Under the pieces are notes generated by a model. It worked only from the letters and a program-made list of their open reading frames with translations. It made no database searches and was not told the origin of the DNA. From Sphyrna mokarran (lineage: Eukaryota): DNA of 64,000 nt. The DNA lies in assembly GCA_024679065.1 (NCBI GenBank), contig JAGIQG010000009.1:81778001-81842000 (forward strand). Reading direction: 5' to 3'. This document shows positions 3,350 to 59,770 of this stretch, piece by piece; positions within the stretch are counted from its first letter, which is position 1, and the number at the start of each line of letters is the position of its first letter. Position numbers and translations under genes: made by a program.

Positions 3350-3785
3350 AATCTGTCCCCTTTCTGACAGTCACGATACCCTTTCTGAGAGGCTCGCTGA
3401 GCCTCATCCTCCACAACAAATTTGGGAACAATAAATCTAAACAGGTACACAGGCATCGACCCATTAACAACTCTGCGGGTGTGACCCCGGCATGACCCCA
3501 GTGATGGCGTGAAGATAGGTCTTGTAGGACAGCAAATAACTGGCCAATCGCAATGGCAGCGGTTCATGAACCTGCTTCATATTTAGCCTTAACATCTGCA
3601 TGGCTCGCTCCACCAACCCATTCGAGGCAGGATGGTCGGGGGCTGGCCTGACATGACAAATGTGATTAGACTTGATCAAAGTGTGAAATTCATCAGCATG
3701 AATGCTGCTCCGTTGTCTGATAGCAACACTTCAGAAAGACCATGGATCACAAAGATCTGTTTCATTTTATCAATGGAAAACGATG

Positions 3786-5178
3786 GTTTTCGTTAGAAAG
3801 GAGGCAGCTAAGAGGAGACCTTATTGAAACATATAAGATGATTAGAGGTTTAGATAGGGTGGACAGTGATAGCCTTTTTCCTAGGATGGAGAAAGCTAGC
3901 ATGAGGGGACATAGACAGACCCCTGAGTGGTGTGCCTCAGGGGTCTGTTTTGGGGCCCCTGCTGTTTGTAATTTTTATAAATGATCTGGATGAGGGTATT
4001 GAGGGATGGATCAGTAAATTTGCAGATGATACTAAAGTTGGTGGTGTGGTAGATAGTGAAGAGGGGTGTTTTAGTTTACAGAGTGACTTGGACAAGTTGC
4101 AGAGCTGGGCCGAGAGGTGGCAAATGGAGTTTAATGTGGAAAAGTGTGAGGTAATGCACTTTGGCAGGAACAATAAATGTGTAGAGTATAGGGCTAATGG
4201 TAGGGCTCTTAATAGTGTTGAGGAACAGAAGGATCTTGGTATATGTGTCAATAGATCCCTGAAAGTAGGCAGTCAAGTGGATAAAGTTGTTAAGAAGGCT
4301 TATGGAGTCTTAGCTTTTATTGGTAGGGGGATTGAATTTAGGAGCCGCAGCATCATGTTGCAGCTGTACAAAACTCTAGTGCGGCCGCACTTGGATATTG
4401 TGTGCAGTTCTGGTCGCCACATTATAAGAAAGATGTGGAGGCATTGGAGAGGGTACAGAGGAGGTTTACTAGGATGTTGCCTGGTATGGAGGGCAGGTCC
4501 TATGAAGAGAGGTTGAAGGATTTGAGGTTGTTTTCGTTAGAAAGGAGGCGGCTAAGGGGGGATCTTATTGAAGCATATAAGATAATTAGAGGTTTGGATA
4601 GGGTGGACAGTGATAGCCTTTTTCCTAGGATGGAGAAAGCTAGCACGAGGGGACACAGCTTTAAATTAAGGGGTATGAGTTATAGGACGGATATCAGAGG
4701 TAGGTTCTTTACTCAAAGAGTGATTAGGGAGTGGAATGCCCTGCCTGCAGCTGTTGTAGATGCGCCAAGTTTGGTGGCGTTTAAGAGGTTAGTTGATAAG
4801 TATATGGATGAGAAGGGAATGGTTTAGTTAGGAGGGGCATTGCTTTTTAATTTGGTCGGCACAACATCGAAGGCCGAAGGGCCTGTTCTGTGCTGTATTG
4901 TTCTATGTTCTATGTTCTATAGCTTTAAATTAAGGGGTGGTGGTTATAGGACGGATGTCAGAGGTAGGTTCTTTACCCAGAGGATGGTAAGGGTATGGAA
5001 TGCCCTGCCTGCGTCAGTTGTAGATGCGCCAAGTTTGGTGGCGTTTAAGAGGTTAGTAGATAAGTTTATGGACGAGAAGGGAATGGTTTAGGTTAGAGGG
5101 TCATTGCTTTTTCCTAATTGGTCGGCGCAACATCGAAGGCTGAAGGGCCTGTTCTGCGCTGTAATGTTCTATGTTCTA
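3786..5178 (+). mobile_element. Composite CR1-type insertion (three joined pieces, two 3' tails), unit 1-specific
   Basis: Pieces ~3786-3912, ~3925-4919 and ~4918-5178; empty site in unit 2 at ~34360. Confidence 0.92.
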
Positions 5179-10429: not shown

Positions 10430-10568
10430 ATTCAGACCACAGCACAAATCCCCAGTGTCAAAAATAACTGCAAAGACTGTCAGATCGGAAGATTGAAACG
10501 TAACCAACAGAGGAAGTGAAAGAAGGAGCTCAGAGCAGCTGGATGTTTGTTACTGAGACGGGAGAAAA
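10430..10568 (+). promoter_or_regulatory. EICE-containing non-coding element upstream of V1
   Basis: ACCACA (RUNX) 10436, GGAAGTGAAA 10512-10521, CAGCTG 10536; paralogs at 39840-39975 (+) and 26147-26229 (-). Confidence 0.5.
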
Positions 10569-15620: not shown

Positions 15621-16019
15621 AAAAACTGAGGAATAGAGGGAGGGAGAAAGAGGAGAGAAAAAGAAAGAGTGAATGAGAGGGTAAACAAACAATGTGAGAC
15701 AGGAAGGACAAGAAACAGAGACAGTGAGAGGGTGGGGGATAGAAACAGAGATTAATGGAGTGAAAGAGACAGCAATGGAGGGAGAGACATCAATAAAGCG
15801 AGGGAGACAGAGACTGAGGGACAGATATCGAGAGAGAAAGACTGAGAATGAGAGAGAGAGAGAGACAATGAGTGAAATAGAGATATCGAGAGAATGAGAG
15901 AGAGAAACTGAGGGACAAGTCTCAGGGACAGAGACTGAGGGTCACTGTCCCTCGGTTTCTGTCTCTCAGACTCTGTCCCTCAGTCTCTGTCCCTCAGTCA
16001 CTCTGGAGAAAGAAGAAGA

Positions 16020-16408: not shown

Positions 16409-16708
16409 GTATCAATGGGGAGATCATCATGACCCAGACTCCCGCGGTGCTGTCAGTGAGCCTGGGCCAGACCGCCACCATTACCTGTACGGCCAGTCAA
16501 GGCATTAGCGATGATTGTGCCTGGTACCAACAGCGAGAAGGACAGAAACCGGCTCTGCTGATCTATGAGGCAACATATCGATTCACAGGAGTATCTGACC
16601 GATTCACCGGCAGTGGATCTGGGACAAGATTCACCCTGACAATCAGCAATGTTCAGAATGAGGATGTCGCTGATTATTACTGTCAGCAAGATAACAGCTG
16701 GCCCCTTA
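16409..16708 (+). CDS. IGKV: Ig kappa-type V exon, cluster 1 ([12 protein letters not shown]...C..WYQQ...[15 protein letters not shown])
   Basis: cccctcAG acceptor at 16407-16408; Cys23, Trp35 (WYQQ) and DxAxYYC motifs; directly followed by a 12-RSS. Confidence 0.97.
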
Positions 16709-16741: not shown

Positions 16742-16912
16742 ACACACAGCACCACCTCCTGTACTGACACATCCCACAGTTTTATATAATATATAATAAT
16801 GGACACACAGTCCCACCTCCTGTACTGACACATCCCACAGTTTTATATAATATATAATAATGGACACACAGTCCCACCTCCTGTACTGACACATCCCACA
16901 GTTTTGTATAAT
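16742..16912. repeat. 61-bp minisatellite, ~3 copies, in the V1-J1 spacer
   Basis: Unit acacacagtcccacctcctgtactgacacatcccacagttttatataatatataataatgg. Confidence 0.95.
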
Positions 16913-17180
16913 AATTAACAAACACAGGAAAGGAAACTGAACAAATTCTTTGCACTGTCCACTACACACTCCAGTCCCTGTGGTGTCTACCGCTCACTGA
17001 AGGCCTCGAGTTTCCCTCTTACTCTTCATGTTCGCATATGAAGAGTGGCTGAAAGATTTATCATCTCAAATTAAAATTCTCAACTCTCTCAATAAAACAC
17101 AGAGACATTCAGGGAAACAGGGAGAGAGAAAGAGTGAGAGAGAAAGAGATGAGTGAGTGAGTGAGTGAGTCAGAGACAGA

Positions 17181-17219: not shown

Positions 17220-17254
17220 CCTTACGTTTGCTAAAGGAACCAAACTCAGAATGA
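17220..17254 (+). CDS. IGKJ: Ig kappa-type J segment, cluster 1 (LTFAKGTKLRM)
   Basis: Follows the 23-RSS; F-A-K-G variant of FGxG, then GTKL; GTAAGT donor at 17255, phase 1, in frame with C1. Confidence 0.93.
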
Positions 17255-17775
17255 GTAAGTAAAGTCCAATCCTCCGTTATTAACCCTTTCAATGCTGAAA
17301 CTTTCTCAAACACAAATACTGAATAGTTGAAGGTGTTAGTGAGGAAGTTGCAGTCAATGAAATGGTTGATTGAAGAACATTGTGTAGAACAGGGAGTCCA
17401 GCTGTTTTTCTTTCCTTCCATTCCCCTCTTTAAACAGCAAGATTTCAGTAAGCAGCTTTTACCCACCGTGTGGAGGAGATCTGGACGTTTGCAGACTGTG
17501 TTCACATTCCTGCAGCATGGAGTGAAATCACTCTCTAGACTCCTGTCGGTCTCAGTGTGACACAGACAGGCAGAGTTTGATGTGAAGTAGAACTCTCTGT
17601 CTCACTCTCTGATATAACTGATCACAGCAGCAGCACAGTGAGACACCGAGGTGCCACCTGCCCCAGCTTTCACTCTGCTCTCTCCACTCCCTGCTTATCT
17701 CTTGCTGAAGTTCTGATGACAAACAGCCACAGCAGGGCTCACAATCCAGTGGCTTCAGTGTTCCAGGCTTTTGTT
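17255..17775. promoter_or_regulatory. Candidate J-C intronic enhancer, cluster 1
   Basis: Non-repetitive block almost identical to 48825-49345; GAGGAAGT (ETS) 17341, CAGCTG 17399, CCACCTGCC (kE2-type E-box) 17654-17662. Confidence 0.55.
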
Positions 17776-18648
17776 TCTTTCTCTTTGGGATGAGTTCAAT
17801 CTGACATTTTCCCAAATCCAACGTCACTGGAAATGCTGATTGTTCTCATTGCTGTGTGTGGGATCTTGCTGTGTACATGTTGTGACCAGTCCTCAGACAG
17901 GATCCCTGATTTGTTAACTTCCTGAACTGGATCCCAATTTTGTTTTCCTCTGAATGAGGAATAATCAGCTGGAATCCTACCCTCGATTGGTCACAACAGG
18001 ATTCATTTAAAATGGATCCTTTCACGGTGGAAATCTTACACCGTCCGTGTAGTTTTTTATTAGCCATTGAATCTCTACAGTGCAGGAGGAGGATATTCAG
18101 TCCATCAGCAGAATTATGAGAGACAGAGATAGGGTAGATATGAGGAAACTTTTCCCGTTAATCACAGAGGCAGCAGATTTTGAGAGGCGTGAGGGAAATC
18201 TTTTCATCCAATTGTCCAAAAGAGCTTCTTACCCAGGCTCCCTGTAACCCTGCACACTTACCATTGCTAACCCACCTAAAGAACACACTAGGGGCAATTT
18301 AGCATGGCCAATCCATCTGACCTGCAGACTTTTGTAATTACTCAGAGGGTAGTGAGGGTGTGGAATGCCCTGCCTGCAGCAGCTGTGGACTCACCAATTT
18401 TAAAGGCATTCAAATGGTCAGTGGATATGGATAATATTGGAATAGTTTAGGTTAGAGGGTCATTAGATTGGTTTCACTGGTCGGTGCAACATCGAGGGCC
18501 GAAGGGCCTGTACTGCGCTGTAATGTTCTATGTTCTATGCACATTGGAATTTTCCAGAAGTTGGTCACTTTATATTCTCAGCCATCTTGGCTCAGTCCGA
18601 GTGCTGTAGAAATTTACAGCACAGAAAGAAGCCTATCCTGTATCCTGT

Positions 18649-18906
18649 ATTTCCACCGTGAAAGGATCCATTTTAAATGAATCCTGTTGTGACCAATCGA
18701 GGGTAGGATTCCAGCTGATTATTCCTCATTCAGAGGAAAACAAAATTGGGATCCAGTTCAGGAAGTTAACAAATGAGGGATCCTGTCTGAGGACTGGTCA
18801 CAACATGTACACAGCAAGATCCCACACACAGCAATGAGAACAATCAGCATTTCCAGTGATGTTGGATTTGGGAAAATGTCAGATTGAACTCATCCCAAAG
18901 AGAAAG
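18649..18906 (-). repeat. 258-bp inverted duplicate of 17777-18034
   Basis: Reverse-complement match with ~2 mismatches; flanked by direct repeat aagcctatcctgtatc (18629-18644, 18904-18919). Confidence 0.95.
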
Positions 18907-20224
18907 CCTATCCTGTATCTGCTGGCCATCAAGCTCCTAACTATTCTAATAGCATTTTCAAACACTTGGTCAGTAGCCTTGTATGCTTTGGAAGTTCAAA
19001 TGCTCATGTAAATATTTCTTAAATGTTGTGACGGTTCCTGCCTCTAGTACCCTTTCAGGTAGTGAGTTCCAGATTCCCAACACCCTCTAAGCGAAAAAGT
19101 TTTTCCTTCAATCCCTCGAAATCTTCTGCTTCTGAAATTAAATCTATGCTCCCTGGTTTTTGAATCTACTGCTAAAAGGGAAAAAGTTCTTTCGCATCTG
19201 TTCTATATCTTCATAATTCGGACCTGCTGCGGTTATACAGGACTTTGGTGAGGCAGCACTGGGAATATTGTGCACAGTTTTGGTCTCCCTATCTCAGGAA
19301 GGATATTTTTGCTGTAGAGGAAGTGCAGAGAAGGTATCCCAGACAGCTTCCTGCTGTAATGGGACTGATGTATGAGGAGAGATTGAGTTGGTTAAGACTT
19401 ATATTCACTGGAGTTCAGAGGAAGCAAATGAAGAGAAATGAGGAAGTAACTCATGGAGACTTATAAAATTCGAACAGGTTAGGGGGAATAGTGAGATAAA
19501 TACATGGGGTTTATGGGGTAAGAGTTGATGGAGACTCGATGAGCTGAATGGTCTCCATCTGCACTTTAGAGATTCTATTGTCCATGTCTGTGCTGGCCAT
19601 TAAGCATCTATCTATTGTAATCACATTTTCCAGCATTTGGTCCGTTGCTTTGTTTGCTTTGTAATTTCAAGTGCTCATCTAAATGCTTCTTAAATGTTGT
19701 GAAGGTTCCCACCTCCGCCATCCTTTCAGGCAGTGAGTTCCAGATTCCCAGCACCCTCTGGGTGAAAAGATTTCCCTCAATTCCCTCAGAATCTGCTGTC
19801 TCTGTGATTAAGGGGAAAAGTTTCCTTTGGAAAGAGTTCAGAGATGGTTCACGAGGCTGATTCCACTGAGTAAGGGATTGTCTTAGGAGGAAAGCTGGAG
19901 TAAGTTGGGCTGATACTCATTAGAATAGAACTTATTCCACCACCTCAGCACCATCTTCACCAGGGCAATTAGGGATGGATGATAAACACTGGTCTGCATA
20001 GAATCACAGCAAGTATCTCCCCTATCCCTGTCCCTAGTAATTCTGTCTTTCTGCAGTTATACAGGGCCTTGGTGAGACCACACTGGGAATAATGTGCACA
20101 TTTTTATGTCCTTATCTGAGGAAGGATGCTTTTGCGACAGAGGAAGTGTAGCAAATCTTTACTGGAATGATTTCTGTGATAGTGAGATTGATGTTGGAGG
20201 AGAGATTGCATTTTTTTCTCAGTT

Positions 20225-20515
20225 TATTTATTAGTCACAAGTAGGCTTACATTCACACTGCAATGAAGTCATTGAGAAAATACCCACATGGCCACATTCT
20301 GGTGCCTCTTCTGAAGGAGAATTTAGCTTGGCCAATTCACCTAACCTGCACACCTTTTGGACTGTGGGAGGAAACTGTAGAACCTGTAGGAAACCTATGC
20401 AGACATGGGGAGAATGTGCAAACTCCACACAGACAGTGAGCCAAGCTGGTAATTGAACCTGGGTCCCTGGCACTGTGAGTCAGCAGTGCCAAGCACTGTG
20501 TCACCGTGCTGCCCC
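20225..20515 (-). mobile_element. V-SINE (HE1-like) in the J1-C1 intron; paralog at ~51155-51455
   Basis: Reverse complement of the tRNA head (ggcagcacggtg...) and V-domain. Confidence 0.82.
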
Positions 20516-23500
20516 CACTGCAGTTCAGAAGAATGAGGGAGATCACAGAAAAACCTATAAAATTCCAACAGGATTAGTCAGGAGAGATATACGAAGCATC
20601 CAGTATGAAATATCATAGTCTGGGAATATGGGGTAAACCTTTTAGGACTGAGGTGAGGAGAAATTCCTTCACCCAGTGAGGGGTAAACCTGTGGAATTCA
20701 CTATCACAGAAAGCAGTTGAGGACAAAATATTGTACATTTTCAAGAAGGAGTTAGATGTATCTCTTGACATGAATAGGATGAAATAATTTGACGGGGAAG
20801 GCAGGAATTGACTACTGATTGGATGATCAGCCATGACCATGATGAATAGTGGAACAGGCTCAAAGGGCCAAATGGCCTATTCCTGTTCCTATTTCCTGTG
20901 ATTCTCTGCAGACCAGTATTTATCACCCATCCCTAATTGCCCTGGTGAAGATGGTGCTGAGGTGATGGAATAAGTTCTACTCCAATGAGTATCAGCCCAA
21001 CCTGCTCAACCTTTCCTCATAAGACAATCCCTTACTCGGTGGAATCAGCCCAGTGAACCATCTCTGAACTCTTTCCAATTCTACTATATCTTTCCTTAAG
21101 TACGGAGACCCTAAGTGTCCACAATATTCTCAGTGTGATTTTCCCAGTGTGCTGGTGCAAAACATCCCTCCTTTTATACTCATCCTCATTGGAATGAAGA
21201 GCAACATTCCATTTGTCTTCCTAATATTTTTCTGTTCCTGGATGCAAACACACCCAGATCACTCAATAGAATTTCACCAGTTTACTAGTATTCTGCTCTA
21301 TTCTCCTGCCAAAGTGGACAACCTCGTTTTCCCACATTATTCTCCATCTGTCGATGTTTCCCCACTCACTGAACCGATCTCTATCCCTTTTCAGACTCTG
21401 TATCCTCCTCACAACATGCATTTCTACTTTTCATTTTATCATCAGCAAGTTTAGTGACATTCCTCTCATTCCTTTCATCCAGCTCATTAATATAGATTGT
21501 AGAGTTAAACCCCAAACAACAACCATCTTCCTTTGTGCCGGGTACAACTCCAACCAGTGGAGAGTTTTCCCCTGATTCCCATTGGCTCCAGTCTTGTGAG
21601 GGCTCCTTGATGCCACACTTGCTGAAATGCTGCCTTGATGTTAAGGACAGTCTCTCTCACCTCACCTCTGGAGTTCAGCTCTTTTGTCCATGTTTGAAAC
21701 AAGACTGTAATGAGATCAGGAGCTGAGTGATCCTGGTGAACACAAACTGAGTGTCAGTGAGCAGATTATTGCTGAGTAAGTGCTGCTTGGTATCGCTCTG
21801 GATATGTTCAGATCACGTTGCTGATGATTGAGAGTAGACTGATGGGGTGGTTATTGTGTAGATTGGATTTGTCCTGTTTTTTGTGCAGAGTTCATAACCG
21901 GGTAGTTTGTTACAATGTTGTGTTGATGCCAGTGTTGTAGATGTACTGGAACAGCTTGGTTAGGGACACGGAAAGTTCTGGAGCACAAGTCTTCAGGGCC
22001 TCTGGAGGAGGTTGAGATGGATCATCCACTCAGAACTTCTGGCTGAAGATTCCGGCAAATGCTTCAGCCTTATCTTTTGCACTGATGTGCTGGGTTCCTC
22101 CATCATTGAGGGTGGAGATATTTGTGGTGCCTCCTCCTCCAGTGAGTTGTTTAATTGTCCACCATCATTCACGGCTGGATGTGGCAGGACTGCAGAGCTT
22201 AGATCTGATCCATTGGTTGTGGGATGGTTTAACTCTGTCTATCACTTGCTGCTTTGCTGATTGGCACACAGTCATAGCTTGTTGTAGCTTCACCAGGTTA
22301 ACACCTCATTTTTCAGTCTGTCTGTTGTTGCTCCTGGCATGTCCTCCTGCACTCTTCATTGAACTGAAAGCAGCAGAGAATCCACAGAAACAGACTGATG
22401 TTTGTCTGATGTGTCTGCGTGTTTATTAGATGTGACTGAGCAGATAGCAAGAGTTTCAGCAGCAACAAAGATGTTTCTCTAGTTCACCTCCCACTTTCCC
22501 CATCCATTTCCAAACTCTTCATGGGGAAAGGGCCAGCACCTGTCATATCCCCCCTCTAAACTACAGGCCTCCCATCTTTCAGATGAGACAATCTGATATC
22601 TGCCCTCTCAGGGGGTGTAAAAGATCCCATGGTACTATTGGAAGAAGAGCAGGGAAGTTCACCCCGGTGAACTGGTTAATATTCATCCCTCAATCAACAT
22701 CACCAGAAATTTGCTTATCTGTTCTTTCTCACTCTGCTCCCTGGGATCTTGCTGTGCACAATGAGCTGTAAAACACATTGGGACATTCTGAGGTGGTGTC
22801 AGGTGCTATAGAAATGTAATTCTGTCTGTGAGGTTGGAGATTCCGAATCCTGACTCTCTCCCATTGATAACATAAAAGCACCCTCCAGAGTTCATGGGGT
22901 CGTTCGGAGCAGTGACCCTGTCTGACCCCTGGACACTGAGACTAATTCTAGCCTCACCCTTGACCTCAGCCCAGTGCTGGACAGTAAGGTTTGAAATGAA
23001 ATCTCAAAGTTTCTACACCAGCCAATGGGAATCCTGTGTGCTGTGTTGATCCAAGTCTGCTCTAATGTTCTGGGATAAAGTTCTCCTGATCTGTGTGTGA
23101 TCTGAGGTTTCTTGATGCTCAACCTGTTTCCCCCAGACAGACTGAGCAATAGTTCCAGCTTCCTGATTGGTTAACAGTCTCTTAAAGGGACACTGTGTCT
23201 TTAAATACTCTCAAAATTAACCATTTCAGTGCTGAATTTGTAGTAATCTTCTTTACAGTTTCAGTAACATTGCAAAATGATTCAACCGGCTTCAAATCAA
23301 ACCTTTTCCCTCAGACACTGAACTAATTTAAAATCGAATGTGCCACTTTCCCTTGGATTCCATCAGCTTTTAATTTTGAAAAGCATGATCCATCCTCCAG
23401 TCCACCTACACTAACACCTGTACCCAGAGAGGATTGGAAAATAATGGTCAGAGTCTCTATTATTTCTTCCTGTTCTTCCCTTCACATCCTGGGATATATT

Positions 23501-24156
23501 TCACCCGGCCCTGGGAATTTCTCCATTTCAAATGGTGATAAACACATTAATACCTCCTCGCTCACCATCATTATCCCATTAATTATTTCACAATCCCTCC
23601 TCTCCTGAACCACAATGTCAACTTTGTCCTTCCACACACAAGTTACCTTTTTGCTCTCTAATCAGCCCTATTTAATCCTTAGTTATTCTCTTTGCAATGT
23701 CCCACACTATTGCTTGATGAACATATATGTCCTGAACTCTATCTCCAGCTCGAATATCCTCCCACTGCTCTGACACTGATTTACCTTCAAGTCACTGTTT
23801 CCTTTCCATTTTGACAAATTCCAATTTTGTGAAATTGACCTTTTCCCATTTAAAACGTTTACTCTTGATCGATCTTTCCCCTTTTCCGGAGCTACTCTAA
23901 ATCTATTATGGTCATTATTACCCAAATGCTCTCTCACTGATACACCTTCCACATGCTGAGTTTCATTCTCTAAAACTGCTAAAATTGACCCTTCTCTTGT
24001 TGGGATTGCTCCGTACTGGTTAAAAACGTTCCCCTGGAATGGATTTTCAGAATTCTGCAACATCAAATCATTGACACTGATTTGATCCCAGTTAATATTC
24101 GGGATGTTGAAAGGCTGAAAATGGCAGTGATTAAAATTCCTTCTCTTCTGTTCCAG

Positions 24157-24485
24157 CCCGTGAGAATTCACAACCCACGCTGACCCTGCTGCCCCCCTCC
24201 CCGGAGGAGGTCAAGACCAAGGGCACTGCCACCCTGGTGTGCCTTGCCGATCACTTCTATCCCGATGAGTTGGAGGTGAAGTGGAAGAAGGACGGTGCAG
24301 CCATTTCCAACGGGATTCAGACCAGCAACTACCTGCGAGCTTCAGACAACACCTACAGCGTCAGCAGCCTGCTGACCCTCTCTGGCTCCGACTGGGAGTC
24401 CAACGCTCGCTTCTCCTGTGCCCTCACCCACGTGAGCCTCTCCTCTCCCCTCAGCAAGAGCATCAGGAGTTCAGAATGTGCCTAG
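24157..24485 (+). CDS. IGKC: Ig kappa-type constant exon, cluster 1 (RENSQPTLTLLPPS...ATLVCLA..FYP...W...YSVSSLLTL...FSC..TH...SSECA*)
   Basis: Polypyrimidine tract and ttccAG acceptor at 24155-24156; C1-set motifs; penultimate Cys for the H-L disulfide; TAG stop. Confidence 0.96.
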
Positions 24486-24965: not shown

Positions 24966-25092
24966 CATTAAGAATATTCAGTATATGTCTGGTGAGTGCT
25001 TTGGAAATGTCCCACCTCCCCATCAGCTGATTGGCTGCATTTCACCAAGTGATTGTCCTGATTGGTTGCTTGGACTGTCAATCAATGACACA

Positions 25093-25410
25093 GTAAGCAG
25101 TCTGACACCAGGTTAAAGTCCAGCAGGTTTATTTCGTAGCACAAACCACTCGCTTTCAGAGCACTGACCCTTCATCAGGTGAGTGGGAATTCTGTTCACA
25201 AACAGGGCATATAAAGATATAAACATAATTTACAATTTTGTGTTTAAATGCCCTGTTTGTGAACAGAATTCCCACTCACCTGATGAAGGGTCAGTGCTCC
25301 GAAAGTGAGTGGTTTGTGCTACTAAAAATAAACCTGTTGGACTTTAACCAGGTGGTGTGAGATTTCTTACTGTGTTTACCCCAGTCCAACGCCGACACCT
25401 CCACATCATC
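25093..25410. mobile_element. Palindromic Penelope-terminus-derived insertion, 12-bp TSD atcaatgacaca
   Basis: ~120-bp inverted arms matching the 58178-58330 terminal repeat; TSD 25081-25092 and 25411-25422; one related arm at the paralogous position ~56540-56680. Confidence 0.85.
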
Positions 25411-26146: not shown

Positions 26147-26229
26147 TCCCGTCTCAGTAACAAATATTCGGCTGCTTCTTTCACTTCCTCTGTTGGTTAC
26201 GTTTCAATCTTCCAATCTGATAGTCTTTG
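26147..26229 (-). promoter_or_regulatory. Inverted copy of the EICE element downstream of C1
   Basis: Reverse complement aligns with 10471-10563; TTTCACTTCC at 26179-26188. Confidence 0.5.
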
Positions 26230-33449: not shown

Positions 33450-35250
33450 AAAGTACAACAGTTAACACACAGGCAGAGAAACAACAATATTACAGGAGGG
33501 ACACCAGGGAAAGACAGTTCATAATGTCAGCTGGTCCAGAGATTTCTGGAACCTTGTGGAACGCTGCAACTCTATCAGGGGCACTTCAACAGCCATCGAT
33601 ACAGGATCCACTGATGGGGTGGATGTGCTAACCATCTCTGGAGCTAGGCCCTGGGCAGCTCCTTTTCTCTGCCTCACCCACCCAAGCCAGACGCTGCCTT
33701 GGCCACACGATGGACATGGAATTGTCTTGTTCAGAGGCTGGTACACACAAACTGGTTACGGGGCCCAATTGCTCATCTCCTGGAGCTTGGTCTACTCTCT
33801 TGCATAGGTAACCAATATGTTCCTTAACTCCACAGCCCTGTGTCTCCCCCAAATATGAGACTGGTCCTGTCTTCTCCACAACTGGGTCCACCATCCAAAT
33901 TCCCACTCAACATAAGGTTGCCAACATTAAACAATCTGTCCCCTTTCTGAGAGTCACGATACCCTTTCTGAGAGGCTCGCTGAGCCTCCATCCTCCCCGA
34001 CAAATTTGGGAACAATAAATCTAAACAGGTACACAGGCATCGACCCATTAACAACTCTGTGGGTGTGACCCCGACATGACCCCAGTGATGGTGTGAGGTG
34101 TAGTGTTGTGGGACAGCAAATAACTGGCCAATCGCAATGGCAGCGGCCATGAACCTGCTTCACATGGAGGCTTGAACATCAGCATAGCTCACTCCACCAA
34201 CCCATTCGAAGCAGGATAGTCGGGGGCTGGCCTGACATGACCAATGTCATTAGACTTGACCAAAGTCTGAAATTCATCAGCGTGAATGCTGCTCCGTTGT
34301 CTGATAGCAACACTTCAGGAAGACCATGGATCACAAAGATCTGCCTCAGTTTATCGATGGTAAATGGAGGATGTGATGGGATCTCATGAGCTGATCGTCA
34401 AGTCACTTGGAATGGGCATCGCCAACACCAGGAACATCTGTCCAAAACCTACATGAAGCCGTGACCAAGAGAGCATGTTCACTGACGGAGGTAACACTTG
34501 CTGAGTCGGACAACTCTCACACTGCCCAACCATTTGTTCAATGTCTCTGTCAATACCATAACTTCTGACCAATACTTTCATTCTGCTCTGGCCAGGATGG
34601 GCATCATGTAACTCTTGGAGCAGTGGCCATGCCCAGAGGGTTGTATGCTGACACAGACCTCCCCCACAATAGCTCTTCATCTTCACGGGGTATCTGGTCC
34701 CTGCAATGTAAATACAACTTCATTAGCTGTGCCTTGTCAAAGTCCCACCCGGTCAGTACCATTTTCTTGCCCTTTGCTGACACCAGCTCCCTATCTATCC
34801 ACATCTGAATGTGGGCTGCTGAGACAGGCAGGGTGTCTAAATAATGCAGAGTCAATACTATCTCCTGTGGAACAGACGGTGACGGTATGGTCTATGGTAG
34901 CGGCAGGCGGCTCAATGCATCTGCATTTGAGATCTGTGTTCCTGGCCTATGCTGGAAGTTTTAGCTGTTTAATGCCAGCAGCAATGCCCATCTCTGCACC
35001 CTGGCAGAGGCAATAGATGGCACTGGTTAAATGTCCTGGAAGAGTCCCAACAATGGCTTATGGTCTGACACGATGGTGAAATGCCGCCCATAGACATATT
35101 GGTGAAATTTATCACTGTGTGGATAATTGCTGGGCTTTCTATGTCGATTTGTGAGTACATTTTGTCAACATTTAACAAAGTCCTCGAAGAAAATGAATTT
35201 GGCCTCTCCATCCCATCTGCCATTCTATGGGACAGAATTGGTCCAACAGA
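33450..35250 (-). mobile_element. Gypsy-type LTR retrotransposon pol remnant (RNase H-integrase); split paralog at ~2050-6050, fragment at 59771-60040
   Basis: YSQID/E...IHTVKNF (RNase H), LHDAHPGQSRMKVLVRSY...C..C (zinc-binding), HPASNGLVER (integrase core, read in the unit 1 copy). Confidence 0.85.
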
Positions 35251-38200
35251 AACAGGGATGACAGGGATCACGGGTAGAGGTGTGAACATCGAAGTGGTGG
35301 CGTGGGCTCGTTGGGTCGAAGGGCCTGTTTCCCGTGCTGTTTTGTTCTTTGTTCTTTGTATTTACCTTGTTAGTCACTCTGACACTAAGGAGAAATTTAG
35401 CATGGCCAATCAGCCTAACTGCACATCATTGGATTGTGGGAGGAAACCAGAGCACCCAGAGGAAACTCACACAAACATGAGGAGAACATGCAAACTCCAC
35501 ACAGACAGTGACCCGATGCTGGAATTGACCCTGGGTCCCTGGCGTTGTGAGGCAGCAGCGTTAACCACTGTGCCACCCCTTTCACACTGAGGTGATTCTA
35601 TTAATATTGGTGAGGTTGAAATCCCCGACTACTATAGCCCTATTCTTCTCACACCTCTCTCTGTGATTTGCCTACATATCTGCTCCTCTATCTCCCTCTG
35701 AGTGTGGGGAGGGCTGTGTTATAATCCCATACAATGATTGCTCTTTATATTTCTCAACTCCACCCATGTGGCCTCATTTGAAGAGCGTTCCAAAATATCC
35801 TGCCTCATTATTGCAGTGATGGTCTCTTTAATCTCTTACATCCTCTTTTACGTCTCCACCACCATCACACCTGGAACTTCTATATCCTGGAATGTCGAGA
35901 TTCCAGTTCTGCCCTTCTTTCAATCATGTCTCAGTGATTACAACAATCTCATATTTCCCCGTGCTGACCAACTCTCTAAGTTCATCTGCCTGACCAGACA
36001 GGCTCCTTGTATTAAAATAGATGCTGTTTTGCCTTCCAATCCTCCCATGTGCCTTATCAAGCCCAAGTCTTCTCTGCCTGCTGGACTCACCGACTTTTCC
36101 TTCTATATCTGACTGAACCTCACTCCCAACTGTCCATCTACTGTGTGTTCATCCCCCACAAAGTACGGCGAGGCCACAAATGATTCCGAATGGTTTGCTT
36201 TGGGTCAAAGTGCACAAGCAATGACGATGACGGTAAAGCTAGTTTGGCTTTTACTAAAGTTTCTTTCTGTGTCTCTCCACAATTCCATCGCTGATGTTTG
36301 TTTAAAAGCTCAGGGTGGTGGGTGGGGGTGGGGGGGTTGCAGAATTGTTGCTGAGCTCAGCAGGAACCTTCTAATTGGGGAAGCCAATGGGAAGCCGGCG
36401 ATCGGGGAGGGGACCGACAATTGTGGGGATGAGGGGGTGGGAGCCATTGGGAAGGCATTCGGTTGGGGAAGGGGAGTAGGGGTGGAAGTCAGTATCAGTG
36501 ATTGGAGGGAGAGTTATGGAAGGCATCAGGGGCTGGCAACTGGGCAAAGAGGGTGGGGAGTCGGGGCCGGTGATTCAGGGGGGAGTTTGGGAGGCCAGTT
36601 GATTCGGGAAAGTGAGATGGGGTGGGGTGGTGTCAAGGCCTGTGATTAGGGGAGTGGGGAATTAGATTGGGGAAGATATCGCAAGGCAGGGATGAGGGAG
36701 TGTTGATCCAGGCCTCGCGGGTGGGATTAACCCCATCCACTGGTGTAAATCCCTGGCAGATTTTTTGAAACACCGAGTGCCGGCGTTTCAACTGAGTAAA
36801 TATGCCCAGAAAATGGTGGGAAAATGTCCTGTTTTCCAGCCGCAATGGGCACTTAGTTTTTCAGGAAATTTGACCCCATCTTTTCGAGACAATAATGAAC
36901 AAAGTGTACAATGGACATGACCCACTCATAACACTCTGTCTACCTTCAACTCATTCTTTAACCTCCAAACCATCTCCTGTTCCAATCCAGATGTTTCAGT
37001 CAAGGAGTCAGATAGATCTACAGCACAGGAGGACACCATTCAACCCCTCATATCTGTACTAGCTATTTTACTAGAGTCATTCAGTTTAATGTGTGTTTTT
37101 GGAAAATGACTGGAATGTTTTATAAGAGACAAAACGAGTGAGAAACATGAACTGATCAGAAAGAGTCAACACAAATTTTAAAAGATTCAGACATGTTCAA
37201 CTAAGCTGCTTACATTTGTTAATCAGTCACTAATGTGCTCGATAAGGGAATATCTCTGGATATTATTTCCATGCATTTCTAAAAGACATTTGGGAAGGTG
37301 CCACATGAGAGGCTGTGAATAAAAATGGAAGTGTTTGGAATTTGAGGAAAGCCTTTGCCATTGATAAGGAATTGGTTCGGAGATAGGAGACAGAGAGTAG
37401 GGATACTGTGTGTATTTTCCAGTCAGCAAGCTGTGAATAGTGATGTCTCCAGGGATCTGTGCTGAAGCCTCAGTTTTTCACTATATTTGTCAATGACTTG
37501 GACGAAGGAATAGAGAGTCACATATCCAAGATTACTGAGCACACTAAATTAGACAGCTTGGAGGAGGTTACAGAGATAGGGAGGGTGCAGGAGAGGAGGG
37601 ATTTGAGAGGCAGGATAGGATTGTTAAAATCAGGGCATCGCTGGACCGGGGGTCAGTGTAGGTCAGTGAAAACAGGGGGTGACGGGTGAACGGGATTTGG
37701 TGCGAGTTCAGATCCAAGCAGCAGAGTTCTGAATGAGCTAATGATTACAGAGGGTGGTAGGTGTGAGGTCGACCAGGACAGCATTGGAATAGTAACGTTC
37801 AGAGGGAACAAAGACACGGATGAGATTTTCAGTGGAAGATGATGTGAGGCAGGGGGGACTCGAGAGATGTTACCGAGGTGGAAATAGGTGTTCTTAGTGA
37901 TGGAGTGGATGAAGTGGTGGGAAAATCATCTCAGGGTCAAATAGGACACCATGGCTGTGGACATAGATACTAAACATGAAACTATTTGCAGTGATGTCTG
38001 CTCTTTTTTTAAGAAGTAAGTCAAAGATCATAAGTGCTGAATATTGTTGGATGTCTTTTAACTTATTTTTAGTGACAGACCCTTAGGCGCTGGATTTTTT
38101 TTACAGTCCACCATGGCTGTGGACTGTGTGAACAAAGAACAAAGAACAACACAGCACAGGAAACAGGCTCTTTGGCCCTAGAAGCCTGCACCACCCATTT

Positions 38201-39839
38201 TAACACTCAGTGAGTGCCTCATTCCAATCCTTCTTCTACCTATAACTTTTGTCTACGCCTCTTGGACTCCACAATAAAGGCATGCAAATTTAGAAAATTA
38301 GAGATTAAGGGAGGTCTAATTTAGGGACAATTTGTTCACACCAATCAACCTAAAAGCATGTTTTTGAGACTTGGGAGGAAACCGGAGCACCCAGACCAAA
38401 CCTGCAAGCACGGGGAGAATGTGCAAACTCTCACAGCACTGATCCAAGTTGGAGATCCAAAAGGGAAAACTTTCGAACAGGGTCTTTCTGGGCAATGGAA
38501 GTCAGCAAGAAGAGAGGATAATGGGTGAAGAGAATTAGGTGAGGGTTGGGATACAGTCATAAAGTTTTGACTGAGTCAAGTTTACTGAGGCTGTAAATTG
38601 GGAGGCTTGCCATGAAGGTATTGGAATAATTGTGTACAATTTCAACAACTAAATTGTTAATCAATTCTTATTGGGTTTTATTTTCCACCGTTTCTCCAAA
38701 TTAAGAATGAAATGAATAATTATTTTAATTAATTAAATAATCAGAGTCTGATAGATTATTTCCTCTACTCCCTTCCTATCACCTTTTAAGATAAGTTTTG
38801 ATTTTGTCAAGGAATCCTACTGAAAAGCAATTCAAAACCTTTAAATAATAATAATTTATGGAAATGACCTAAAGTCAACAAGTTATGAGATTGAGACTCC
38901 AAATCTGTTGAGGAGTTTTTGTTTTTCCCCTTGCCCTTCCTAGTGGCAGAGGTCAGGGGTTTGGAAGGTGCTGTCGAAGAAACTTTGGTGAGTTGTCTGC
39001 CACTGTTTCTAGCGTTCCACCATTTAGATCGTGCTCAGTTCTATCCTGTCCAAGGTCACCTCATATTTACTGACAGTGAAATCAATTGCCCACAGTTGTA
39101 CTCATTTTCTTTGTAATTATCAACTGTTATTGCAATGTTACCTCTTTCTATGCCATTAACAATCTGAATATGGGGCTTTTTAAGTAATCAGACAAGTTAT
39201 TACATTTAGTGATTCGATACCCAGGTGGGATGATGGTGGGAACTGAGTGGCAGGAATAAGAAAGGCCAATCTAAAGGATTCTTCTATACATGGTGTTGTC
39301 CAAGATGGTCAGCAATGTTAACAGTTAATTGTGCCCATTCCAACAACCAAGAGAGCAGGTCTATAAAGAGAAGGAATTAGAGATTTTTATCAGATATCTA
39401 CATTTAAAAGAATGCTTCTCCTATTAGAAGTCGTGGTGCACAGTCCTTTAAGCTGTTGTAAGGACAATGTTTAATGGAATTAGTGTTGAGGGTACAGAGT
39501 TTGTGATGGAGTCTAAAGGCAATGGCAGATGGGGAGTGTGAAAACACCCACTTTGGACCGAGGAAAGAGTGAGCAGACTTGTGATGTGGAGGATTTGTGG
39601 CAGGGGAGGGGCAAGGGGGAGGAGGGTGGCGGAGCAGATCAGGGTCAAAGTTGAGGCCAATGTTGTAGAGAGTGTGGTTGAGCAGCAGACAGTGCTCAGG
39701 GGGGAGGGATGGAGTTTGTATCGGGAGCTGAAGACCATGGCTTTGATCTTCCCAATGTGTTTCCCAGTGAGCCTGGCTCCTCAGTCCTGACTGCTCTGAG
39801 CTGTTGTTCTTTTCACTGATTGGACAGTTATTGTTAGAG

Positions 39840-39975
39840 ATTCAGACCACAGCACAAATCCCCAGTGTCAAAAATAACTGCAAAGACTGTCAGATCGGAA
39901 GATTGAAACGTAACCGACAGAGGAAGTGAAAGAAGGAGCTCAGAGCAGCTGGATGTTTGTTACTGAGACGGGAGA
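39840..39975 (+). promoter_or_regulatory. EICE-containing non-coding element upstream of V2
   Basis: Near-identical to 10430-10565; GGAAGTGAAA 39922-39931. Confidence 0.5.
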
Positions 39976-41109
39976 AAATGGTGAACCGTGTTCACTATCT
40001 CCAATCTCCCAGCACAGAAGGCACAGTGGGATACAGTCAGGAGGGAGTTATCCTGGGACATCACTGCAGGAGTTCCTCAGGGTCGTGTCTGAGACACAAC
40101 CATCTTCAGCTGCTTCAGTAATGACCTTCAGAAGTGGGGATGTTCACTGATGATTGCACAATGCTCAGCACCATTCACAACTCCTCAGATATTGAAGCAG
40201 TAACATTCATGCCACATCAGTACCACGGAATCACCATCTCCAACAAGAGAGAATTTTAACATCTCCCCTTGACATTCAATGTCATTACCATCGCTGAATC
40301 CCCCACTGTAAAATCCTGTTGGTTATGATTGACCAGAAACTGAACTGGACCAGCCTATAAATAGAGTGGCTATTTATAGCCACAAGAGAAAGTCAGTGGA
40401 TAGGAATCCTGCAGTGAGTAACTCACATCCTGACTCTCCAAAGCCTCTCCACCATCTACAAGGCACAAGTCTGGAGTATGATGGAATACTCTCCACTTGT
40501 CTGGATGAGTAGAGCTGCAGCAACACTCAAGAAGCTCAACATCATCCAGAACAAATCAGCCCACTTGATTGTCACCCCATTCACAAACATTAAATCCCTC
40601 CACCACTGTCGAACAGTGGCAGCAGTGTGTGCCATCTATAAGTTCATGCCCTGCATGAACTCAACAAGGTTCCTGAGGCAGCACCTTCGAAACCCATGAC
40701 CACTATTATCTGGAAAGACAAGTGTAGCAGATCCCTGGGATCAACATCACCAGGAGATTCCCCTCCAAGCCACATGCCATTCTGAAATGGAAATACATCT
40801 CTGTTCATGCACTGTCGCTGGGTCAGAATCCTGGAAATCCCTCCCTAACAGCACTGTGGGTGTATGTACACCTCATGGACTGCAGTGGTTCAAGAAGGCA
40901 GTTCATCATCACCTTCTCAAGGACAATTAGGGATGGGCAATAAATGTTGAGATAGCCAGTAACACCCACATCCCGTCAATGAATACATTTTTAATAATTC
41001 CTACTTTACACAATGTCCCATTCTGTGTGTTGAAGTCTGGATCCTGTCAGCAGAATATTTGACTGCAAGAGCCTTCACCACTGTCCCCAACCAAAATCCA
41101 CATAGAACC

Positions 41110-49345: not shown

Positions 49346-50094
49346 ACTTTCTCTTTGGGATGAGTTCAGTCCGACATTTATCCTGGATCCAACGTTACTG
49401 AAAATGCTGATTGTTCTCATTGCTGTGTGTGGGATCTTGCTGTGTACATGTTGTGACCAGTCCTCAGACAGGATCCCTCATTTGTAAACTTCCTGAACCG
49501 TATCCCAATTTTGTTTTCCTCTGGGTAAGGAGTAATCAGCTGGAATCCCACCCTCGATTGGTCACAACAGGGTTCATTTAAAATGGATCCCTTCATCAAT
49601 GGAAACCTTAAACAATCCACGTAGCCCTTTATTAGCCATTGAATCCCTACAGTGCAGAAAAAGGCTATTCAATCCGTCAATTTTGCACCGACTCTCCAAA
49701 AGGCGTTCTTATCCAGGCTCCCCATCCTGTCCCTGTAACCCTGCACATTTACCATTACTAATCTCCCTAATGAACACAGTAGGGATAACTTATCATGGCC
49801 AATCCATAACCTGTATATCCCATTTTCCAACACTTGATCCATTACCTTGTCAGCTTTGGAATTTCAAATGCTTATCTAAATACTTCTTAAATGTTGTGAG
49901 GGTTCCTGCCTCTAGTACCCTTTCAGGTAGTGAGTTCCAGATTCCCAACACCCTCTGAGTGAAAAGGTTTTTCCTCCAATCCCTCAAAATCTTCTGCTTC
50001 TGAAATTAAATCTAGGCTCCCTGGTTTTTGAATCTACTGCTAAAAGGGGAAAGTTCTGCTCTATGTCTTCATAATTCTGACCTGCTACAGTTAT

Positions 50095-50361: not shown

Positions 50362-53300
50362 CTGCTGCAGTTATACCGGGCTTTGGTGAGGCAGCACTGG
50401 GAATATTTGTGCGCAGTTTTAGTCCCCCTATCTCAGGAAGGATATCTTTGCTCTCAAGAAAGTATTAGAGAACATACCCCAGACTGATTCCTGTTTTAGT
50501 GGGACTGATGTATGAGGAGATATTGAATTGATTATGACTTATATTCACTGGAGGTCAGAGGAATGAGGGTACAACTACTAGAAACCTGTTAAATTCGAAC
50601 AGGTTAGGGGAAATAGTGAGGTAAATACATGGGGTTCATGGGTTTAAGAGTTGATGCAGACTCGATGGGCCGAATGGTCTCCGACTGCACTTTAGAGATT
50701 CTATTGTCCATGTCTGTGCCGGCCATTAAGTATCTATCGATTCTAATCCCATTTTCCAGCATTTGGTCCGTTGCTTTGTTTGCTTTGGAATTTCAAGTGC
50801 TCATCTAAATGCTTCTTAAATGTTGTGAAGGTTCCCACCTCCGCCATCCTTTCAGGCAGTGAGTTCCAGATTCCCAGCACCCTCTGGGTGAAAAGATTTC
50901 CCTCAATTCCCTCAGAATCTGCTGCCTCTGTGATTAAGGGGAAAAGTTTCCTCATATCTACCCTATCCCTGTCCCTTGTAATTCTGTCTTTCTGCAGTTA
51001 TACAGGGCCTTGGTGAGACCACACTGGGAATAATGTGTACAGTTTTATCTCCTTATCTGAGGAAGAATGTTTTTGGTACAGAGAAAGTGCAGCAAATGTT
51101 TACTGGAATGATTTCTGTGACAGTGAGATCAACATAGGATGAGAAATTGTTTAAGTTTATTTATTAGTCACAAGTAGGTTTATGTTCACACTGTCATGAA
51201 GTCACTGTGAAAATCCCCATGCAGCCATATTTCGGCGCCTGTTCTGGTATACTGAGGAAGAATTTAACTTGGCCAATTCACCTAACCTGCACACTTTTTG
51301 GACTGTGGGAGGAAACCGGAGCACTTGGAGGAAACCCATGCAGTCATGGGGAGGATGTGCAAACTCCACACAGACAGTGAGCCAAGATGGCAATTGAATC
51401 TGGGTCCGTGGCACTGTGAGGCAGCAGTGCTAATCACTGTGTCACCGTGTTGCCCCACTGGCAGAAGAATGAGCGGGGATCACATAAAAACCTATAAAAT
51501 TCCAACAGGACTAGTCAGGATAAATACAGGAAGCATGTTCCCAATGCTGGAAGCGTCCAGTTTGAGGCATCATAGTCTGAGAATATGGGGTAAACCCTTT
51601 TAGGACTGAGGTGAGGAGAAATCCCTTCACCCAGAGAGGGATAAACCTGTGGAGTTCACTATCACAGAAAGCAGTTGAGACCAAAATATTGTACGTTTTC
51701 ACAAAGAAGTTAGATTTAGCTCTTGGGGTGAATGGGATGAAAGGATTTGTTGGAGAAGGCAGGATCTGGCTACTGATTGGATGATCAGCCATGATCATGA
51801 TGAATAGTGGAACAGGCTCAAAGGGCCAAATGGCCTATTCCTGTTCCTATTTCCTGTGATTCTCTGCAGACCAGTATTTATCACCCATCCCTAATTGCCC
51901 TGGTGAAGATGGTGCTGAGGTGTTGAAGTTCTACTCCAATGAATATCAGCCCAACCTGCTCAAGCTTTCCTCATAAGACAATCCCTTATTCATCAATCTT
52001 CTCTGAACTCTTTCCAATGCTACTATATCCTTCCTTAAGTATGGAGACCAAAAGTGGCCACAATATTTCATGTATGATTTTCCTAAAGTGTTGTATGGGT
52101 GGAGTAAGGCATCCCTCCTTTTATACTCATCCTCATTGGAATGAAGAGCAACATTCCATTTGCCTTCTGAATTTTTTGCTGTTCCTGGATGCAAAGACAC
52201 CCAGATCACTCGATAGGATTTCTCCAGTTAACTAGTATTCTGCTCTATTCTCCTGCCAAAGTGGACAACCTCACATTTTCCCACATTATTTTCCATCTGT
52301 TGATGTTTCCCCACTCACTGAACCGATCTCTATCCCTTTTCAGACTCTGTATCCTCCTCACAACATGCATTTCTACTTTTCATTTTATCATCAGCAAGTT
52401 TAGTGACATTCCTCTCATTCCCTTCATCCAGCTCATTAATATAGATTGTAGAGTTAAACCCCAAACAACAACCATCTTCCTTTGTGCCGGGTACAACTCC
52501 AACCAGTGGAGAGTTTTCCCCTGATTCCCATTGGCTCCAGTTTTGTGAGGGCTCCTTGATGCCACACTTGCTGAAATGCAGCCTTGATGTTAAGGACAGT
52601 CTCTCTCACCTCACCTCTGGAGTTCAGCTCTTTTGTCCATGTTTGAACCAAGACTGTAATGAGATCAGGAGCTGAGTGACCCTGGTGAACATAAACTGAG
52701 TGTCAGTGAGCAGATTATTGCTCAGTAAGTGCTGCTTGGTATCGCTCTGGATATGTTCAGATCACATTGCTGATAATCGAGAATAGACTGATGGGGTGGT
52801 TAATGTGTAGATTGGATTTATCCTGTTTTTTGTGCACAGTTCATAACCAGGTAATTTATCACAATGTTGTGTTGATGCCAGTGTTGTAGATGTACTGGAA
52901 CAGCTTAGTTAGGGACACGGAAAGTTCTGGAGCACAAGTCTTCAGGGCCTCTGGAGGAGGTTGAGATGAATCATCCACTCGGAACTTCTGGCTGAAGATT
53001 CTGCAAATTCTTCAGCCTTGTCTTTTGCAGTGATGTGCTGTGCTACTCCATCATTGAGGATGGGAATATTTGTGGTTCTTCCTCTTCCAGTGGATTGTTT
53101 AATTGTCCACCACCATTCACGACTGGATGTGACAGGACTGCAGAGCTTAGATCTGATCCACTGGTTGTGGGATGGTTTAACTCTGTCTATCACTTGCTGC
53201 TTCTGCTGTTTGTCACACAGTCTCTGTATTGTAGCTTCACCAGGTTAACACCTCATTTTTCAGTCTGTCTGTTGTTGCTCCTGGCATGTCCTCCTGCACT

Positions 53301-59740: not shown

Positions 59741-59770
59741 TCTACACCAGCATCCCCCAGATTTTGCTCT

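What the first reader, a model, noticed from the sequence alone, without database searches (positions are those of the whole stretch)
17777..21078. Three separate inverted, locally templated insertions in 3.3 kb of the cluster-1 J-C intron
Seen: (a) 18649-18906 is the reverse complement of 17777-18034 (258 bp, ~2 mismatches). (b) 19827-20009 is the reverse complement of 20896-21078 (~182 bp, more diverged, spanning a local repeat junction). (c) 18109-18210 is the reverse complement of 19759-20045 as it was before insertion (b), including a locus-specific internal deletion. None is present in cluster 2, which shows clean empty sites for (b) at ~50952 and (c) at ~49680. Implied order: c, then b, then probably a. 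Inference: recurrent germline break repair by template switching just downstream of J. This is notable because germline-joined Ig genes in cartilaginous fish imply RAG activity in germ cells.
Basis: partly seen in the sequence, partly recalled or inferred. Interest (0 to 1): 0.7.

Follow-up and report, generated by a model that had tools for sequence, protein, structure and literature searches.

The report
Inverted copy scars in shark intron
One shark antibody light-chain gene carries three short backwards copies of nearby intron DNA, likely ordinary scars of faulty DNA copying or break repair, with no sign at their ends that the antibody-gene cutting enzymes made them.

Summary
The three inverted copies are real and sit at the stated coordinates, in the J-C intron of an unjoined shark kappa-type V-J-C cluster. 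(a) 258 bp, 256 of 258 identical; sides with its own cluster at 24 of 25 diagnostic sites; flanked by a 16-bp duplication with microhomology. (b) 183 bp, 92%. (c) 102 bp, 89%, spanning b's empty site. Only (a) is shown to be local. (c) matches cluster 2 better and keeps 4 ancestral bases that both donors lost, and cluster 2 cannot test (a) because its target is deleted there. The form matches known germline inverted duplications (<1 kb, within 5 kb; PMC4617611). No RAG or AID trace: 0 of 11 breakpoints at a CAC, 4 of 11 near WRC (background 55%), targets 0.9-2.6 kb from J, both clusters unjoined. Three other non-transposon inserts lie elsewhere in the window, one also with a 16-bp duplication. 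This scan has noted similar copies in non-Ig shark genes (unchecked notes). Some clustering remains (post hoc P 0.003-0.05). No read support or genome-wide control was obtained.

The parts
16409..16708 (+). Cluster-1 V exon (kappa/NS4-type by architecture), followed by a 12-spacer RSS at 16709
   Evidence: the 186-bp leader intron and 511-bp V-J spacer fit NS4 in PMC2193156
17220..17254 (+). Cluster-1 J segment, preceded by a 23-spacer RSS ending at 17219; J-C intron runs 17255-24156 (6902 bp)
17257..17776 (.). Intron block 99% identical between clusters (5 mismatches in 520); possible enhancer or conversion tract; ends where donor a begins
17777..18034 (+). Donor of a; low-copy in the window
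18109..18210 (-). Insert c; about 9-13 nt of target lost beside it
18338..18539 (+). 3' fragment of the window's common LINE-like repeat, absent from cluster 2 at this place
18629..18644 (+). Left copy of the 16-bp target duplication of a; followed by 4 extra nt (18645-18648) that repeat the preceding 7-mer
18649..18906 (-). Insert a
18904..18919 (+). Right copy of the 16-bp duplication; its first 3 nt are shared with the donor end; an 8-nt donor/target match lies beside it
18914..19385 (+). First copy of an older direct duplication (77% identical to 19585-20208 once b is left out), present in both clusters
19759..19826 (+). Donor of c, left part, with the 36-bp locus-specific deletion
19827..20009 (-). 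Insert b, inside the donor of c; no duplication; 2-4 extra nt at 20010-20013
20014..20045 (+). Donor of c, right part
20896..21078 (+). Donor of b; joins two repeat pieces
24157..24485 (+). Cluster-1 C exon, open frame
49680..49692 (+). Cluster-2 empty site of c
50885..50986 (+). Cluster-2 uninterrupted orthologue of the c donor; holds the empty site of b at 50952/50953

Best explanation
The intron holds three inverted copies of nearby intron DNA that likely arose at separate times as germline copy-and-paste accidents, when a stalled or broken DNA end briefly copied 100-260 bases from the opposite strand and then rejoined its own track. Shown: the three copies, their orientation, their junctions, the local origin of a, and the empty sites of b and c. 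Inferred for a: the growing end slipped by a 7-mer, primed on the opposite strand 0.6 kb upstream, copied 258 nt, and returned through microhomology 16 nt before its exit point, so duplicating those 16 nt. Inferred for b and c: similar switches to templates 1.2 and 1.8 kb downstream, with near-blunt rejoining (b) or a loss of about 10 nt (c). Also inferred: patchy gene conversion between tandem kappa clusters later reshuffled the donors, and the inserts persist because this repeat-filled part of the intron tolerates change. The source of the breaks is not shown; nothing at the junctions points to RAG or AID.
For: Form and scale match the commonest inversion-type variant in human germline genomes: 54% of 229 verified inversion sites were inverted duplications, nearly all <1 kb and within 5 kb of the other copy, with replication errors proposed (PMC4617611 section 9). 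a sides with cluster 1 at 24 of 25 sites where the clusters differ. An 8-nt donor/target match lies at a's return junction; 0.5% of 5000 random intron zone pairs reach that. There is no poly(A) or LINE tail, and the 16-bp duplication differs from the 3-5 bp at 5 of 5 LINE-like inserts checked. No RAG or AID signature was found. Adjacent substitutions exceed expectation by a similar 1.5-1.7-fold in this stretch and in the upstream control. Other non-transposon inserts lie outside the stretch: 37963-38108 with an exact 16-bp duplication and a 9-nt fold-back, 22401-22571, and the fold-back 15888-16003. Cluster-to-cluster divergence swings from 1% to 18% between 200-bp bins of this intron, as expected with patchy conversion.
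Against: All three spaced, low-copy inverted pairs of 60 bp or more that one search found in 64 kb lie here, with targets within 1.72 kb. Under uniform placement P is 0.003 for 3 events and 0.05 if all 6 non-transposon inserts are counted (post hoc), so plain chance may not be the whole story. b landed inside c's donor arm (about 0.03-0.06 by chance). Local origin of b and c is not shown. No read support and no genome-wide background were obtained.
Confidence: 0.72

Rival explanations
1. Ig-specific germline breaks: RAG or AID leaking in germ cells cuts downstream of J, and repair leaves the inverted copies.
For: Germline joining of NS4 kappa genes with hairpin-type joints is published (PMC2193156). 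The inserts lie 0.9-2.6 kb behind J and are clustered. Shark hypermutation reaching about 2 kb into the J-C intron and making duplications is recalled (Zhu and Hsu 2010); searches did not find that paper.
Against: 0 of 11 breakpoints at CAC (2.5 expected; P 0.06 for so few); WRC at 4 of 11 (6 expected). No excess of tandem substitutions over the upstream control. Both clusters are unjoined with perfect V RSSs. The published RAG products end exactly at the RSS, and that paper calls germline joining infrequent. Cluster 2 shows no such insert in its intron. Old breakpoints may have decayed, so the motif test is weak for b and c.
Confidence: 0.07
2. b and c were copied from a paralogous kappa cluster (ectopic template in the tandem array), not from the neighbouring kilobases; only a is local.
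For: c matches cluster 2 at both sites where it can side with one cluster and keeps 4 ancestral bases lost by both donors. Insert-private changes outnumber cluster-1-private ones 19 to 4 (P 0.003). About 50 NS4 clusters exist in nurse shark, and a third cluster remnant lies at 59759-63918.
Against: With the older paralogues as outgroup, c's branch (5-7 changes) and the donor branch to cluster 1 (about 6-7) are similar, which fits an old local copy followed by conversion. b shares 19 bp with cluster 1 that cluster 2 lacks and sides with cluster 1 at 5 of 7 sites, though these may be ancestral states. Known inverted duplications are nearly all within 5 kb.
Confidence: 0.15
3. Self-seeding: the inverted repeat made by c folded or stalled forks and provoked b (inside its arm) and later a (inside its loop).
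For: b's target lies in c's 102-bp donor arm (about 0.03-0.06 by chance), a's target lies between the arms, and a's donor ends 75 bp from c. It would also explain why only cluster 1 has them.
Against: The arms are 1.5 kb apart and were already decayed when a arose; widely spaced inverted repeats are weak break inducers (recalled). The stretch was unstable before c: an older direct duplication and a 36-bp deletion are shared by both clusters, and cluster 2 has its own deletion and element insertion here.
Confidence: 0.12
4. a is a retro-copy: a retroelement endonuclease made a 16-nt staggered cut, and reverse transcriptase copied a fragment of J-C intron RNA into it.
For: Exact 16-bp duplication and a short slipped repeat at the end that would prime. 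A palindromic element in cluster 2 has a 13-bp duplication, and another insert has 16 bp, so long staggered cuts occur in this genome.
Against: No poly(A) or LINE tail; the site does not read as a TT/AAAA endonuclease target (read; consensus recalled); the donor is only 0.6 kb away; b and c have no duplication. The human inverted duplications were 'not typically associated with retrotransposition'.
Confidence: 0.08
5. a is an assembly or chimeric-read artefact.
For: 99.2% identity; no read support obtained.
Against: Its two differences look biological: one is a CpG transition and one is the base seen in cluster 2. It has a clean 16-bp duplication. b and c are 8-11% diverged from their donors and cannot be such artefacts.
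Confidence: 0.03

Closest known systems
Germline 'Inverted Dup' variants of the 1000 Genomes SV map (PMC4617611; passages and section 9 read)
   Same: Copy under 1 kb (102-258 bp), inverted, inserted within 5 kb (0.6-1.8 kb) of an intact original; no retro tail.
   Different: Those are human polymorphisms verified by long reads. Here there are three copies of different ages within 1.7 kb of one shark Ig intron, not read-verified.
Local 2-jumps: loss plus nearby inverted duplication, and duplications linked by inverted junctions (PMC7025897; passages and section 9 read)
   Same: c is a small loss plus inverted copy; a is a small duplication plus inverted copy; two junctions each; copy-and-paste.
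   Different: Described as somatic events in tumours; these are germline and a few hundred bases long.
MMB-TI, microhomology-mediated templated insertions (PMC8421209; passages read)
   Same: Found as germline variants, with microhomology or microhomeology at junctions, as at a.
   Different: b shows no junction microhomology and c at most 2 nt. Template distance and size were not compared, as those passages were not read.
Germline-joined NS4 kappa genes of nurse shark (PMC2193156; outline, section 12 part 1 of 2 and section 20 part 1 of 2 read)
   Same: Same gene architecture (186-bp leader intron, about 500-bp V-J spacer).
   Different: Those events cut exactly at the RSS and join V to J. 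Here both clusters are split and the changes lie 0.9-2.6 kb into the intron, away from RSS-like sites.
Inverted duplications of avian IGH loci (bioRxiv 10.64898/2026.09.05.749481; passages read)
   Same: Recurrent inverted duplication in an Ig locus.
   Different: Gene-sized copies that supply V pseudogene donors; here they are short intron pieces with no coding role.

Membership tests
Local inverted duplication (Inverted Dup / local 2-jump) | Inserted segment under 1 kb is the reverse complement of another segment | tested here: met
   258, 183 and 102 bp
Local inverted duplication (Inverted Dup / local 2-jump) | Original stays in place within 5 kb (copy gain) | tested here: met
   Gaps of 615, 875 and 1549 bp between copies; donors intact, except c's, which b later split
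Local inverted duplication (Inverted Dup / local 2-jump) | The neighbouring copy, not a paralogue, was the template | tested here: inconclusive
   Met for a (24 of 25 sites); b 5 of 7; c 0 of 2; only two full clusters available
Local inverted duplication (Inverted Dup / local 2-jump) | Empty ancestral site exists | tested here: met
   b and c in cluster 2; for a it is inferred from the 16-bp duplication only
Local inverted duplication (Inverted Dup / local 2-jump) | Verified by long reads | not tested
   No reads or contigs were laid on the stretch
MMBIR/FoSTeS template switch | Microhomology at the junctions | tested here: inconclusive
   a: 3 nt at the junction plus an adjacent 8-nt match (P 0.005) and 2 nt on the left; b: none; c: 1-2 nt
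RAG-mediated germline rearrangement | Break at the edge of an RSS or cryptic CAC heptamer | tested here: not met
   0 of 11 breakpoints within 3 nt of CAC; background 23%
RAG-mediated germline rearrangement | V-J joint or loss of RSS | tested here: not met
   Both clusters split, RSSs intact
AID-initiated lesions | Breaks near WRC/WGCW, excess of tandem substitutions | tested here: not met
   WRC 4 of 11 against 55%; WGCW 1 of 11 against 15%; tandem fraction 0.26 against 0.16 expected here, 0.20 against 0.13 upstream
RAG or AID activity in germ cells | Enzyme expressed in germ cells of this species | not testable with these tools
   No expression data
Retro-copy by target-primed reverse transcription | Target-site duplication | tested here: inconclusive
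   a has 16 bp; b and c have none
Retro-copy by target-primed reverse transcription | Poly(A) or element tail at the 3' end | tested here: not met
   None at any end
Cartilaginous-fish kappa (NS4/type III) cluster | V-12RSS, 23RSS-J, C; 186-bp leader intron; 502-524-bp V-J spacer | tested here: met
   Cluster 1: 186 bp and 511 bp against PMC2193156; V matches antibody light chains. No tree was built, so the isotype rests on architecture.

The most novel reading that the evidence does not exclude
The first 3 kb of the shark kappa J-C intron, just behind a conserved enhancer-like block, is a heritable break hotspot opened by leaky Ig-locus activity in germ cells, and each inverted copy helps seed the next. 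These introns would then be a fossil record of germline RAG/AID-era damage in clusters that never joined V to J, countable across the dozens of clusters in any shark assembly.
Probability: 0.1. Interest if true: 0.6.

Novelty: new member of a known kind. Interest (0 to 1): 0.17.

Why it matters
Most likely it matters little: these are further examples of a known mutation class. They are useful as lineage markers for ordering kappa cluster duplications and conversions, and insert a would form a 258-bp near-perfect duplex in the pre-mRNA (predicted; no effect shown). If J-proximal introns of shark Ig clusters proved enriched for such scars, they would give a sequence-only test of whether antigen-receptor enzymes damage germ-cell DNA beyond the rare V-J joints.

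Tried and rejected
No whole genome is held, so no genome-wide density or donor search was possible. Run search: 24 runs listed, none holding half of the words (best 0.48); no RNA holder listed; not used as evidence. No reads or contigs were laid, so read support, polymorphism of a, and presence in relatives stay open. Metagenome scan with the V protein: 333 pattern hits, 0 relatives. Scan look-ups by place, by sequence, and by two Ig word sets returned nothing. Candidate controls rejected: 3786-3914 against 2779-2907 (96%, inverted) is one LINE fragment split by a nested LINE, not a templated copy; 38948-38994 against 40658-40704 looks like two old repeat fragments (repeat identity recalled); the palindromes 25088-25375 and 50130-50364 are a dispersed element with several copies; 26147-26229 against 10471-10563 lies 15.6 kb away and was not resolved. 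Two cluster-2-only stretches of 55 and 58 bp (54976-55030, 56099-56156) were left out of the count of 6 non-transposon inserts because their polarity is unknown. One serial event making both b and c was considered: the ages fit, but it needs conversions on both sides of b that spare b, so it is less parsimonious. Mutagenic synthesis as the cause of the long insert branches was rejected for c, as 4 of 11 differences are ancestral. An excess of large indels in this stretch is marginal (6 in 2.2 kb against a hand tally of 15 in 13 kb; P 0.04-0.07). Enhancer motifs in 17257-17776: 2 E-boxes, 1 ETS and 1 RUNX-like hit, no kB or octamer; uninformative. Literature searches listed no paper on such inserts in shark Ig introns; the library lacks most subscription journals. 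No supplements were opened.
Full report
Setting. The window is a tandem array of cartilaginous-fish light-chain clusters. Cluster 1 has V at 16409-16708 with a perfect 12-spacer RSS, J at 17220-17254 behind a 23-spacer RSS, a 6902-bp J-C intron and an open C exon at 24157-24485. Cluster 2 repeats this about 31 kb downstream, and a third remnant lies at 59759-63918. The 186-bp leader intron and 511-bp V-J spacer match nurse shark NS4 (kappa) split genes, of which about 50 exist per genome (PMC2193156). The isotype rests on this architecture; no tree was built. Both clusters are unjoined.

(a) 18649-18906 is the reverse complement of 17777-18034 with 2 mismatches; (b) 19827-20009 of 20896-21078 at 92.35%; (c) 18109-18210 of cluster-2 50885-50986 at 89.2% without gaps, and of the cluster-1 donor on both sides of b. 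Thirty shuffles gave at most 34.6 bits, against 457, 269 and 88-135. The donors of b and c are repeat-derived but carry locus-specific joints: b's donor spans two repeat pieces, and c includes a 36-bp deletion absent from the older paralogous copies. Cluster 2 has empty sites for b and c but has lost a's target region.

Junctions. a is flanked by an exact 16-bp direct repeat. Its left junction has 4 extra nt that repeat the preceding 7-mer. Its right junction shares 3 nt with the target, next to an 8-nt donor/target match that 0.5% of 5000 random zone pairs reach. b is near-blunt with 2-4 extra nt and no microhomology. c has 1-2 nt of microhomology and about 9-13 nt lost beside it. No insert has a poly(A) or LINE tail. 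Five of five LINE-like insertions checked have 3-5-bp duplications; a palindromic element has 13 bp.

Which template, and when. For a, the insert sides with cluster 1 at 24 of 25 sites where the clusters differ, so the template was cluster 1 or a very close sister. One difference is a CpG transition, and at the other the insert has the cluster-2 base, which argues against an artefact. For b, 9 changes are private to the insert, 2 to cluster 1 and 5 to cluster 2, and cluster 2 lacks 19 bp that the insert has. For c the counts are 10, 2 and 0. Pooled, 19 against 4 is lopsided (P 0.003). With the older direct duplication as outgroup, 4 of c's 11 differences from cluster 2 are ancestral in the insert, 5 are derived and 2 ambiguous. 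So c was copied before the two clusters' donors last shared an ancestor. Divergence between clusters swings from 1% to 18% in 200-bp bins of this intron, which fits patchy gene conversion (inference). The order c, b, a is therefore likely: a is clearly youngest (P 0.001), and c precedes b if its template was local. Local origin of b and c is probable but not shown.

RAG or AID. The targets lie 889, 1425 and 2607 bp from the J cut site. None of 11 breakpoints has a CAC within 3 nt (background 23%), 4 of 11 are near WRC (55%) and 1 of 11 near WGCW (15%). Adjacent substitutions, recalled as a mark of shark hypermutation, exceed expectation by the same factor here (0.26 against 0.16) as upstream (0.20 against 0.13). 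The published germline RAG products end at the RSS, and the authors call them infrequent. The test is weak for old breakpoints, but nothing supports the link.

Is the cluster special? Among pairs within 3.5 kb, all three spaced, low-copy inverted matches of 60 bp or more in the window are these. Other non-transposon inserts exist outside the stretch: a fold-back at 15888-16003 upstream of the V promoter, 171 bp replacing 87 bp at 22401-22571, and 146 bp at 37963-38108 in cluster 2 with an exact 16-bp duplication and a 9-nt fold-back. Three targets within 1718 bp have P 0.003 among 3 events and 0.05 among 6; the test is post hoc and the window was picked from a large scan. The stretch is unstable in other ways too: an older direct duplication (77%), a LINE fragment, and in cluster 2 a deletion and a palindromic element. 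Large-indel density is about twice that elsewhere (P 0.04-0.07, using a hand tally). b lies inside c's donor arm (about 0.03-0.06), a hint of self-seeding. No genome and no reads were available, so the two decisive controls remain open.

Comparison. In 2,504 human genomes, 54% of 229 verified inversion sites were inverted duplications, nearly all under 1 kb and within 5 kb of the other copy, and SVs also clustered at 3,163 regions (PMC4617611). Tumour genomes show the same two-junction forms (PMC7025897), and microhomology-linked templated insertions occur as germline variants (PMC8421209). Earlier notes of this scan describe like copies in introns of non-Ig genes of shark-type genomes (APCDD1, SLBP, MAN2A2, TEX261, an immune adaptor). 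These are unchecked AI notes that I did not test; they agree with the reading but are not evidence. Searches listed no paper on such inserts in shark Ig introns.

Verdict. These are real inverted duplications of a known class, likely neutral scars of template switching (confidence 0.72). Insert a is predicted to fold with its donor into a 258-bp RNA duplex, with no function shown. The RAG reading is unsupported (0.07). A modest, unexplained clustering is what remains of interest. Interest 0.17.

Noticed in passing
37947-38127: Cluster-2-only 146-bp insert with no in-window source, an exact 16-bp target duplication and a 9-nt fold-back end; a further 1.5-kb cluster-2-only stretch follows (38131-39638).
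   Followed up: partly
15888-16003: Cluster-1-only fold-back of GA-rich units about 100 bp upstream of the V promoter TATA-like site; cluster 2 has the units in direct orientation.
   Followed up: partly
22401-22571 against 53348-53434: 171 bp with no in-window match replace 87 bp present in cluster 2, in the distal J-C intron.
   Followed up: partly
17257-17776: 520-bp intron block 99% identical between clusters, ending exactly where donor a begins; enhancer or recent conversion tract.
   Followed up: partly
16742-16913 and 47943-48482: 61-bp minisatellite directly behind the V RSS (2.8 and 8.9 copies); each unit holds a weak 23-spacer RSS look-alike (1 heptamer and 3 nonamer mismatches). It lengthens the cluster-2 V-J spacer by about 370 bp.
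   Followed up: no
25088-25375, 50095-50361, 56536-56666, 58174-58338: Dispersed palindromic element; the copy at 50095-50361 has a 13-bp target duplication and sits in cluster 2's J-C intron.
   Followed up: partly
3781-5176: Nested LINE-in-LINE insertion that mimics an inverted local copy.
   Followed up: yes
26147-26229: 83-bp inverted match (84%) to 10471-10563 and its cluster-2 orthologue 39881-39973, in the spacer between clusters; origin unresolved.
   Followed up: no
16498-16521: Cluster-1 V has an unpaired-looking extra cysteine just before the conserved tryptophan at the end of CDR1; cluster 2 does not.
   Followed up: no
59759-63918: Remnant of a third cluster's upstream region (80-90% to 34957-36828).
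   Followed up: no
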